Shown piece by piece: positions 2,781 to 18,189 of a DNA stretch of 20,369 bases. The notes beneath the pieces are model-generated. The model was not told the DNA's origin, did not search any database, and was given only the letters and a program-made list of their open reading frames with translations. Made by a program: the position numbers and the translations under genes. Each line of letters opens with the position of its first letter. The stretch's first letter is position 1. This DNA is from Octopus sinensis (Eukaryota), in assembly GCF_006345805.1 (NCBI RefSeq), contig NW_021824004.1:1-20369 (forward strand), written 5' to 3'.

Positions 2781-3414
2781 ATAATTAATCAATATAGGGT
2801 GGCAAAAAAAATTTTGTAGAATTTTTTTGCCACCAGCGGCCTAGTGGGAAAAAATTAAATATTCATAGACCATTTTTAAGTTCAACATCACAATCATTAT
2901 TATGGCCGTTCCTTGATTGTGATGTTGAACTTAAAATGGTCTATGACTATTTAATTTTTTCCCACTAGGCCGCTGGTGGCAAAAAAATTCTACAAAAATT
3001 TTTGCCACCCTATATTGATTAATTATGAATTTTCTGGTTAATTCCGTAATGGAATCGGCGGCTTATATTTATTTGCTGCCGATAATTTGGCGCGAGTGCG
3101 ATGATTTGAAAATTTTAGGTCAGATATTGCCGAGGCAGGGACGGGAATGCCTCGTGAAAAATATCTGTTCCGACTTGGCTATTTCTTACTGATGAATCTA
3201 AGGGACTATGGTAGATTGGCTTGATTTAATTTAATCAGGTTAGTTTACCATTAAACAGTAGACGAAACGGTGCATCGTATAAGAAATTACAGGGTAAATG
3301 TTTTTAATTTTCTCCTGGTTTACGGAATTGATGTTATTTTGCGGTTAAAGCTTTTGGCTGTTATTTCTAGTGGGTGAATGGCCTATTATGGCCGTTCCTT
3401 GATTGTGATGTTGA
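2781..3414 (+). mobile_element. Non-coding hammerhead-bearing retroelement (Penelope-like pLTR / non-LTR retrozyme) inserted in (TA)n
   Basis: Inverted arms 2781-2896 and 2914-3026. Identical 31-bp direct repeat TATTATGGCCGTTCCTTGATTGTGATGTTGA at 2898-2928 and 3384-3414 (period 486). Internal hammerhead. (TA)n on both sides. No ORF. Confidence 0.85.
3181..3287 (+). ncRNA. Type I hammerhead ribozyme with extended stem II
   Basis: Stem I ATTTCTTA 3181-3188 / TAAGAAAT 3280-3287. CTGATGA 3189-3195. Stem II TCTA 3197-3200 / TAGA 3259-3262 enclosing a 19-bp hairpin 3208-3226 / 3233-3251. GAAA 3264-3267. Stem III ACG/CGT. GUA triplet, predicted cut after 3279. The first stem II pair is A.C instead of the usual G-C. 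Confidence 0.88.
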
Positions 3415-16680: not shown

Positions 16681-17614
16681 ACGTAATGGTTGAAATGCAT
16701 GTGTTGCTGACCATAAGGCTAATCCGTATCCCTTAACCATTTCAATCAATACCTTTCTTCCAGCCGTGACAATCCTGTCTTACTTCTACGCTGAATTAGT
16801 TCCAAGACCACGCCGTTTCACTAAGGTATTTTAAGGGTGATATAGCTACTACTTCTAGCAAATCACACGCCTCGATCGAGGCTCATGTAATATTCCAATT
16901 ATTTCAGATAAATTAGCAACAACAGGTGTTGTAGTGAATGAAGCAAGACTATGTCGAAAGGCAGTCCAATCGTGACCATCCAGTCCTTATGTATTGAATC
17001 GTAATATAAATATATACAGCAAGCATTTATATAAATATCCAAAACATACGATTATATTGTTATATCCGTCTATCAGTCTGTCTGCCTATCTATTGATCTA
17101 TCTATTTATCTATATATCTGTCTATCATAGATGACTAAAAACACTTCACTGCAAACTTGAAATTGGAATTTTTGTCTAAAATTAATCTAGCTTTAAAATT
17201 AATAAGGCTTTCCCCCAGTTAAAAAATACTATGTCTACTCATAATAATAAGTGATAGGTTTTTTTTCTCTAAATTACACTCTCTTTGAATGGGATTAGGA
17301 CCATTTGACATTGACCTAGTTTCTCTCATCAAATAGCAGTAATTGGCATTTATTAGTGGCAATTGCTGTCTTCAACATGAATTCCTTTTACGGAGTTCTG
17401 AAACCTCCTTTACCCCCATTTCTACAATTAAAAAAATCTTTATTGCTTCTAACCTTACAGCAGTTAGGAACAACCATATCTTAGTCAGTCAGTGGAAGGA
17501 CTTCACTACTTCATATGTTCTTAAAATTTAAATCCACATCTTTGTCTGTATATCTACCTTCTCTATAATGTTGCCACTTGATTTGAAAATTTCTGTATTA
17601 ATGGAAAACCTCTA

Positions 17615-17710
17615 TAATTGGCTGATGAGTACTCAGCATCTTAAATCTGTTGTTGCAATACTTACAACATTTAATAAAATGATGTAGTACGAAACGATCG
17701 TACCAAATTA
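17615..17710 (+). ncRNA. Type I hammerhead ribozyme with extended stem II
   Basis: Stem I TAATTGG 17615-17621 / CCAAATTA 17703-17710 (one bulge). CTGATGA 17622-17628. Stem II GTACT 17629-17633 / AGTAC 17686-17690 with further pairing inside. GAAA 17691-17694. Palindromic stem III ACGATCGT. GUA triplet, predicted cut after 17702. Confidence 0.87.
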
Positions 17711-18189
17711 CCGAGTCATTCTTGTTGCTTATTTTGATTATATATATATATGTACATGTATATATATGTATGTGTGTATAAATATATATATATATATAAT
17801 ATATATTATATATATATAATATATATATATATATACATACACACAAACACACACAAATATATATGCGTGTGTGTATAGCTATACATACATGTTTATCTGT
17901 GAGTGTGGTGGGGTGGGGGTTTTGTGTGCTTAAATGTTCGTTATCCAATTCGAGTTTCCTTCTTTTAGAAACATTGTACTCTGAGAGACATTTGGCTGTT
18001 ACTTTTTGCGGCTGCGGCAGCCATGTCGAAGGTCGTTCTTTGACTAAATGGTCGTGCCTTATTGTTGTATTGATGGTGGTGATGATGAGGAAGGAAGGGA
18101 ATAAGAATGATGGGGATGAAGGTAATGGGGCTGATGATGATGTCGACAACGATTGTGGTTGTGGTGAATGTGTAGGTGGTAAAAAGCAT

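What the first reader, a model, noticed from the sequence alone, without database searches (positions are those of the whole stretch)
17615..17742. Second, sequence-distinct hammerhead with the same long-stem-II design, ~30 bp before (TA)n
Seen: intact core with a canonical G-C first pair in stem II. The 62-nt stem II region has GTACT/AGTAC, CATC/GATG, TTAAA/TTTAA and TGTTGT/ACAACA pairings. Stem III is the perfect palindrome ACGATCGT, too tight to close as a monomer. GUA site. The stems share no sequence with the 3181 ribozyme, yet the topology is the same. Inference: at least two families of one structural class, and this one is probably an obligate dimer. The 5' boundary of the element is not evident.
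Basis: partly seen in the sequence, partly recalled or inferred. Interest (0 to 1): 0.8.

Follow-up and report, generated by a model that had tools for sequence, protein, structure and literature searches.

The report
Long-armed hammerhead in Hydra-type retrotransposon
This is the leftover tail end of a common Penelope-like jumping gene, carrying the predicted self-cutting "hammerhead" RNA such elements are known to have; its one unusual feature is a folded side arm of about 60 bases, two to five times longer than in described relatives, whose job is untested.

Summary
The hammerhead is real: type I core, cut predicted after A17702, 62-nt stem II, palindromic stem III. It ends a 5'-truncated, non-coding ~615-nt copy (17125 to ~17740) of a Hydra-clade Penelope-like retroelement. 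Longer copies lead into an RT + GIY-YIG ORF with the Hydra motifs. Stem II is 51-100 nt in 6 of 7 Hydra lineages sampled in this genome, against 10-25 nt in all 51 distinct motifs from metagenome Hydra elements and 12-26 nt in published ones. The arms of different lineages share no detectable motif and one lineage has a 16-nt arm, so "one structural class" is not shown. Dimer pairing of stem III is supported and already known; "obligate" is not, since a published ribozyme of similar stem III geometry cuts as a monomer. The 3181 motif sits in a ~489-nt tandem non-coding repeat. No cleavage or RNA-end evidence was obtained. The scan noted long-stem hammerheads before on other DNA of this genome. 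Verdict: new variant of a known kind.

The parts
17125..17742 (+). 5'-truncated, non-coding 3' end (3' UTR / pseudo-LTR) of a Hydra-clade Penelope-like retroelement
   Evidence: blastn to 30 own-genome loci: matches run 17125-17742 at 86-95%; relatives extend upstream to staggered ends; in L033 the ORF stops about 90 nt before the point matching 17125
17618..17621 (+). Stem I, 5' strand (TTGG), pairs with 17703-17706; 3 further pairs possible past one bulge
   Evidence: 3 of 4 pairs show changes on both sides, 96.7% of cells paired
17622..17628 (+). Catalytic core CUGAUGA
   Evidence: sequence; invariant except the N position in 45 aligned copies chosen for an intact core
17629..17690 (+). Extended stem II, 62 nt (59 in most copies): basal 5-bp helix, sliding middle region, distal hairpin 17648-17669
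   Evidence: basal helix 4 of 5 and distal helix 2 of 5 pairs with double changes; middle helices no covariation; 40 of 45 copies fold as a rod closed by the basal helix, median z -2.8
17673..17678 (+). AATAAA in the 3' strand of the arm, ending 24 nt before the predicted cut
   Evidence: AATAAA or ATTAAA in 42 of 45 lineage copies; in range in 3 of 19 long-arm types vs 0.78 expected; function untested
17691..17702 (+). GAA, palindromic stem III ACGATCGT (17694-17701), A17702; cut predicted between 17702 and 17703
   Evidence: sequence; G-C/A-U swap keeps the palindrome (33 AU, 9 GC, 2 GU, 1 other of 45)
17703..17742 (+). Stem I 3' strand and short 3' end; last 5 nt shared with the (TA)n target
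   Evidence: 20 of 33 hammerhead copies in L001-L030 end here (~+36), 13 of 33 at about +135; junctions
17739..17839 (.). (TA)n microsatellite, insertion target
   Evidence: Tandem Repeats Finder; copies ending in (TA)n

Best explanation
This is the 3' stub of a Hydra-clade Penelope-like retroelement inserted into a (TA)n repeat, and the motif is its pseudo-LTR type I hammerhead, predicted to cut RNA after A17702 and likely to work best as a pair. Shown: complete relatives carry the same hammerhead both after the ORF and 187-210 nt before the start codon; copies end at two fixed points after the cut site (~+36, ~+135) and are truncated at variable 5' points. Inferred: in tandem elements two hammerheads swap strands through the 8-nt palindrome and trim or release the element RNA; reverse transcription starts just downstream of the hammerhead on an uncut or re-joined RNA, since copies span the cut site. 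The long arm is most likely an insertion-tolerant extension of stem II, kept base-paired so that it does not disturb the core, not a needed new module. This solo copy has no ORF and no same-family partner in the window, so it is probably inert.
For: ORF with RWK, DKT, YRDD, CxCX5C linker, CxxC/CxH around E and N, C-terminal endonuclease, matching the Hydra definition and sequences in PMC8557442. 63 of 70 endonuclease loci carry this hammerhead, whole or partial, downstream. Hammerhead at both ends of complete relatives. Covariation: 95.8% paired, 10 of 18 pairs with double changes, score 0.363 vs 0.202 shuffled and at most 0.117 slid. Central two letters of 8-nt stem III self-complementary in 14 of 16 hammerhead types, chance 1 in 4; neighbouring letters cannot pair within one molecule. 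Swapped dimer -39.6 vs two monomers at MFE -34.2 kcal/mol. Arm not essential: a nested lineage (L254) has 16 nt; middle register slides.
Against: No cleavage data. The hammerhead fold is not the MFE of the monomer (-12.4 vs -17.1) and an unconstrained dimer finds a different fold at -43.9. Pfam gave no RT or GIY-YIG hit, so the clade call rests on motifs, by-eye comparison with published proteins and Atlas look-alikes with HTH_animal and RVT_1 families. The RT of this exact subfamily was seen only in pieces; complete ORFs come from related subfamilies. Arm length is stable (57-62 nt in most copies) across endonucleases only 60% identical, and AATAAA is kept in 42 of 45 copies, which is more than a neutral extension needs. 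The 45 aligned rows were chosen for an intact core and are related, which inflates pair counts.
Confidence: 0.8

Rival explanations
1. The long arm is a selected functional module of this Hydra sub-clade: a docking site for the element protein, a tertiary contact to stem I, or a carrier of a poly(A) signal placed just before the ribozyme cut so that 3'-end formation and self-cleavage compete.
For: Long arm in 6 of 7 sampled lineages of one clade; distal hairpin covaries; AATAAA/ATTAAA ends 24, 24 and 17 nt before the cut in this family, the 3181 family and the L207 family, with U-rich sequence after the cut; the lineage of L210 has a compact ORF and ~240-nt 3' UTR yet a 55-nt arm; an anole PLE hammerhead needs the element protein to cut (PMC11167929).
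Against: Hexamer in range in only 3 of 19 long-arm types (0.78 expected), noticed after the fact, two of the three in sister lineages; no shared motif between arms; lengths 43-100 nt; a 16-nt lineage exists.
Confidence: 0.15
2. The motif is an obligate dimer that cannot cut as a monomer at all.
For: 8-bp duplex -10.0 vs 2-bp hairpin +2.4 kcal/mol for the palindrome alone; central-letter self-complementarity; a Schistosoma minimal PLE hammerhead shows no monomer activity (PMC4209133).
Against: In context closing the 2-bp stem costs only 0.3 kcal/mol; a 2-bp + tetraloop hammerhead cuts 22%/h as a monomer, and a coral retrozyme monomer cuts at ~0.8/min (PMC7229834); Rfam's Hammerhead_1 consensus has a stem III of the same length.
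Confidence: 0.25
3. The copy is a non-autonomous retrozyme or SINE-like unit, like the 3181 repeat, not a piece of an autonomous element.
For: The window copy has no ORF; in a likely DNA run (kind not on record) the last ~230 nt are far deeper than the rest.
Against: Copies run on co-linearly for over 2.4 kb into RT and endonuclease coding sequence; 5' ends are staggered; no head-to-tail short units among L001-L030 apart from inverted partial copies and a 2.4-kb duplication.
Confidence: 0.05
4. Chance match of two short core boxes in AT-rich repetitive DNA.
For: Below Rfam's gathering score; not in the displayed top 150 of 206 window-wide Rfam rows.
Against: 0 of 100 window shuffles; covariation; position in the pseudo-LTR where PLE hammerheads are known.
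Confidence: 0.01

Closest known systems
Hydra clade of Penelope-like elements and their pseudo-LTR hammerheads (Craig et al. 2021, PMC8557442; passages, section 11, supplement part 2 of 59 and search passages read)
   Same: C-terminal endonuclease, RWK, DKT, CxCX5C, CxxC/CxH, (TA)n target, type I hammerhead near the 3' end with near-palindromic stem III; an octopus family (Hydra-1_Obim) is listed.
   Different: Published Hydra stem II regions are 12-26 nt by my count of File S2 (Hydra-1_Obim 23 nt); here 59-62 nt. Elements here are larger (ORFs 778-1124 aa with Asn-rich inserts; published consensus DNA mostly under 3 kb). By eye this is a different family from Hydra-1_Obim. The second 3' end lies ~100 nt past the first, against the 30-40-nt tail described.
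PLE minimal hammerheads acting as dimers (Cervera and De la Pena 2014, PMC4209133; parts 1-2 of 4 read; review PMC6765202, passages)
   Same: Type I, in pseudo-LTRs, small palindromic helix III, G10.1-C11.1 pair, dimer model.
   Different: Their 'larger than usual' helix II is 6-8 bp; here about 21-23 bp with internal loops. Stem III here is 8 nt, not absent.
PLE-X1 hammerheads of spike mosses (File S2 of PMC8557442)
   Same: A PLE hammerhead with a stem II region of about 50 nt, marked as deviating from the canonical structure: long arms are not without precedent.
   Different: Plant, endonuclease-less, rDNA-targeting elements; two families; not analysed as a structure in the passages I read.
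Metazoan non-LTR retrozymes (PMC7229834, passages; bioRxiv 10.64898/2026.07.22.740005, part 1 of 5)
   Same: Type I hammerhead; fits the 3181 repeat of this window (~489-nt tandem non-coding units).
   Different: The 17622 motif belongs to a protein-coding element and this copy is single.
Anole Poseidon PAc (Frangieh et al. 2024, PMC11167929; parts 1-2 of 4 read)
   Same: Two fixed 3' ends downstream of the hammerhead, explained there as two internal RT start sites; AT-rich targets.
   Different: Other clade; ORF starts inside the hammerhead there, about 190 nt after the cut here; ends 30-40 nt apart there, ~100 nt here.

Membership tests
Type I hammerhead ribozyme | Core CUGANGA, GAAA, UH with stems I-III, stem I open | tested here: met
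   covariation
Type I hammerhead ribozyme | Rfam Hammerhead_1 gathering score (34 bits) | tested here: not met
   19.4 bits, E 0.021, 54 nt taken as insert; a limit of the model's short stem II
Type I hammerhead ribozyme | Site-specific self-cleavage | not testable with these tools
   only assembled contigs were served
Type I hammerhead ribozyme | Loop I - loop II tertiary contact | tested here: inconclusive
   no conserved internal loop at a fixed distance from the core across subfamilies; no 3D modelling done
Penelope-like element, endonuclease-bearing | Single ORF with RT and C-terminal GIY-YIG-type endonuclease | tested here: met
   in relatives, not in the window copy; Atlas look-alikes; Pfam silent
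Penelope-like element, endonuclease-bearing | Pseudo-LTRs, 5' truncation, inverted partial copies, optional tail | tested here: met
   hammerhead at both ends in L204, L207, L209, L229, L240; staggered 5' ends and inverted copies; two 3' ends
Hydra clade | RWK and DKT motifs | tested here: met
   IRWK in L102/L178, ADKTG in L202-L205; RW with another third letter in some copies
Hydra clade | CxCX5C linker; CxxC and CxH beside the E and N; no CCHH | tested here: met
   CNCRIRSKC, CQLC..E, N..CxH in L033; absence of CCHH judged by eye
Hydra clade | Insertion into (TA)n | tested here: met
Hydra clade | Placement with reference Hydra RTs against Neptune, Nematis, Poseidon, Naiad | not tested
   reference proteins were readable in the supplement but not loadable; my trees hold only Hydra-type sequences
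Naiad clade | N-terminal endonuclease, no canonical hammerhead | tested here: not met
   endonuclease is C-terminal and the hammerhead canonical
Non-LTR retrozyme | Short non-coding tandem units, each with a hammerhead | tested here: not met
   not met for 17622; met for the 3181 repeat

The most novel reading that the evidence does not exclude
One sub-clade of Hydra elements, seen here with argonaut relatives, evolved a long structured stem II that does a job no described hammerhead arm does, for example presenting a poly(A) signal 17-24 nt before the cut or binding the element's own protein to switch cleavage on. Thousands of such ribozymes in about 15 sequence types would then be an overlooked natural library that fixed-length searches miss.
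Probability: 0.15. Interest if true: 0.62.

Novelty: new variant of a known kind. Interest (0 to 1): 0.36.

Why it matters
What PLE hammerheads do is still open: one tested case needs the element protein and is dispensable for insertion in vitro (PMC11167929). A clade in which stem II ranges from 16 to 100 nt, with young intact ORFs on both sides of the contrast, is a ready natural series for asking whether stem II matters. It also shows that Rfam thresholds and short-spacer descriptors under-count hammerheads in such genomes. The copy in this window is an ordinary dead stub.

Tried and rejected
Window-wide Rfam: the 150 rows shown of 206 were nearly all microsatellite-driven miRNA matches, no hammerhead. 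One search used a structure string shifted by one column; discarded and redone. Pfam scans: nothing useful. Homolog search with the endonuclease alone: none at E<=0.001. Viral contigs: none. Structure prediction: machine busy, not run. RNA runs: no RNA holder listed on record; the 7 runs laid (6 guessed RNA, 1 of unknown kind) were contigs, some bridge the predicted cut, none can show ends; no weight given. Poly(A)-signal idea: kept only as a rival. General 'bloating' of the element as the sole cause of the arm: fits the long UTRs of most lineages but not L210. Naiad or Nematis membership: considered from recalled motifs, rejected on domain order and the CxCX5C linker. Of 19 long-arm clusters, 4 fold no better than shuffles (L142|2532, L244, L129, L144) and are treated as false hits. 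Lunse et al. 2017 (PMC5785218) was not held; known only from its citation in PMC6765202; it may list long-stem variants. Supplements of PMC4209133 and PMC7229834 were not read and may also bear on the claim. Six literature searches showed no description of 50-100-nt stem II in animal PLEs; 'long helix II' in PMC13725137 means 6-8 bp.

Full report
Observation. The motif is as described: core CTGATGA at 17622-17628, a 62-nt stem II region (17629-17690), GAA, the palindrome ACGATCGT (17694-17701), A17702, and stem I TTGG/CCAA. A descriptor allowing stem II up to 200 nt finds two motifs in the window (3189, 17622) and none in 100 block shuffles; on 1.23 Mb of fetched loci it finds 307 hits (window included) against 2 in reversed and 1-3 in shuffled sequence. 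Rfam Hammerhead_1 matches at 19.4 bits, under its threshold, treating 54 nt as an insert.

The element. A DNA search of the own genome gave 2370 candidates, 40 scored, 94-97% identical; one 24-nt piece occurs exactly 223 times, control 0. The window copy runs 17125-17742. Relatives extend further 5' to staggered ends and into an ORF whose stop lies about 90 nt before the point matching 17125. Of 70 loci fetched through the endonuclease (60-100% identical), 63 carry this hammerhead downstream, whole or partial, 45 with a strict core match. Complete ORFs of related subfamilies show RWK, DKT, YRDD, a CxCX5C linker and CxxC/CxH around the conserved E and N. These define the Hydra clade in PMC8557442, and the motif order matches its listed proteins by eye. 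Pfam did not recognise the protein; Atlas neighbours carry HTH_animal and RVT_1. The only named proteins among the 10 relatives looked up are from Argonauta hians, so the host is probably an octopod (inference). Complete relatives carry the hammerhead after the ORF and again before it, 187-210 nt ahead of the ATG in this lineage and its sister, up to 505 nt in others. Of 33 hammerhead copies in L001-L030, 20 end ~36 nt and 13 end ~135 nt after the cut, typically in (TA)n.

Structure. Alignment A1 holds the window copy and 44 of the 45 strict matches (L072 left out; the 25 loci with degenerate, partial or no motif were not aligned, so rows are chosen for an intact core and are related). Stems I, basal II, distal II and III: 95.8% of 805 cells paired, 10 of 18 pairs changed on both sides (2 of 500 shuffles as high), covariation 0.363 vs 0.202, slid controls at most 0.117. 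Folded singly, 40 of 45 arms form a rod closed by the basal helix, 35 of 45 with z below -2. So the arm is kept as an imperfect hairpin whose middle register slides. RNAalifold prefers a competing 6-bp hairpin joining the 3' side of basal stem II to the cut site, with no double changes.

How unusual is the arm. Published Hydra hammerheads have 12-26 nt between the core boxes (my count of File S2). A metagenome scan gave 78 Hydra-type loci; 54 had a hammerhead, 51 distinct, all 10-25 nt; 24 had none, mostly for lack of flank, though three had over 1 kb of 3' flank. In this genome I sampled seven Hydra lineages: 57-62 (this one), 51, 53-55, 55, 85-100, 53 and 16 nt. In a quick ML tree the own-genome rows and the argonaut proteins form one clade (SH-aLRT 100, midpoint root), apart from all 34 metagenome rows (2 of 36 lacked a long enough match); the 16-nt lineage is nested inside. 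The metagenome query was led by a protein of the other clade, so this cannot tell a clade effect from a host effect. Beyond Hydra ORFs, 27 hammerhead clusters turned up in the loci; 19 have 40 nt or more, 4 of those look false, and 8 are short, 10-27 nt. The family's covariance model finds no shared arm motif: short-arm outsiders score 24.5-33.4 bits, long-arm motifs of other lineages 18.5-34.7, the 3181 motif nothing. A ~50-nt arm has a precedent in spike-moss PLE-X1. Six searches found no account of such arms in animal PLEs; one key paper was not held.

Dimer. The central two letters of 8-nt stems III are self-complementary in 14 of 16 types (types not fully independent), which fits pairing between molecules. 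Nearest-neighbour energies favour the swapped dimer (-39.6) over two monomers (-34.2), though a non-hammerhead dimer is lower still (-43.9) and the monomer hammerhead fold is 4.7 kcal/mol above the MFE. Dimer action is the standard model for PLE hammerheads. A 2-bp + tetraloop hammerhead still cuts 22%/h as a monomer, so 'dimer-favoured' is supported and 'obligate' is open.

Mechanism. Shown: location, copy structure, covariation. Inferred: cleavage after A17702; pairing of two motifs in tandem transcripts; RT starting at two sites after the hammerhead, as shown for the anole element. Because copies span the cut site, their template was uncut or re-joined there. The arm is most likely tolerated and kept paired. 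The rival is a functional arm: AATAAA/ATTAAA persists in 42 of 45 lineage copies and ends 24 nt before the cut in both window motifs, but lies in range in only 3 of 19 long-arm types against 0.78 expected. RNA runs were contigs only and say nothing on cleavage.

The 3181 motif lies in a different repeat: ~489-nt tandem units, 98-99% identical, no ORF, with inverted partial copies, that is a retrozyme-type repeat.

Verdict. Known element class, known ribozyme, known dimer logic; a real, clade-wide lengthening of stem II that I did not find described. The scan reported long-arm hammerheads in this genome before; this report adds the Hydra assignment and the 6 of 7 versus 0 of 51 contrast, both reached from my own calls. 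New variant of a known kind, interest 0.36.

Noticed in passing
window 2781-3414: The 3181 hammerhead (68-nt arm, 12-nt stem III) sits in a young ~489-nt tandem non-coding repeat with an inverted partial copy at 2781-2896; retrozyme-like, over 2200 search candidates. Older relatives at ~70% in L117 and L142.
   Followed up: partly
L012, L033, L045, L079, L102, L122, L142, L204, L208, L221, L230, L238 (flanks): Many further hammerhead types turn up by chance in flanking DNA, stem II 10-76 nt; the genome seems very rich in them.
   Followed up: partly
3181 family, L142, L079, L238, L204: A recurring TAAATGTTTT-like motif about 15-25 nt after the predicted cut in sequence-distinct hammerheads; a possible protein-recognition or RT-start signal.
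   Followed up: no
L210, L211: Elements with long open ORFs whose hammerhead core reads CCGAAGA instead of CTGAAGA, a U4C variant, with a 55-nt arm.
   Followed up: no
L099-L101, L202, L204: Hydra ORFs carry long Asn-rich in-frame inserts on both sides of the thumb region, up to 1124 aa in all.
   Followed up: no
L211, L212, L251: A short-arm (12 nt) hammerhead with a 15-16-nt stem III in small fold-back insertions; could work as a monomer.
   Followed up: no
window 17686-17703: A competing hairpin GUACGA/UCGUAC joins basal stem II to the cut site and is predicted across the lineage; may damp monomer activity.
   Followed up: partly
window 17503-17733: Summed contig depth in run X19 is tens of times higher than upstream, fitting many very short 3' stubs.
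   Followed up: no
window 8315 and 8452: Core-like boxes without supporting stems; fail the descriptor and are taken as chance.
   Followed up: yes
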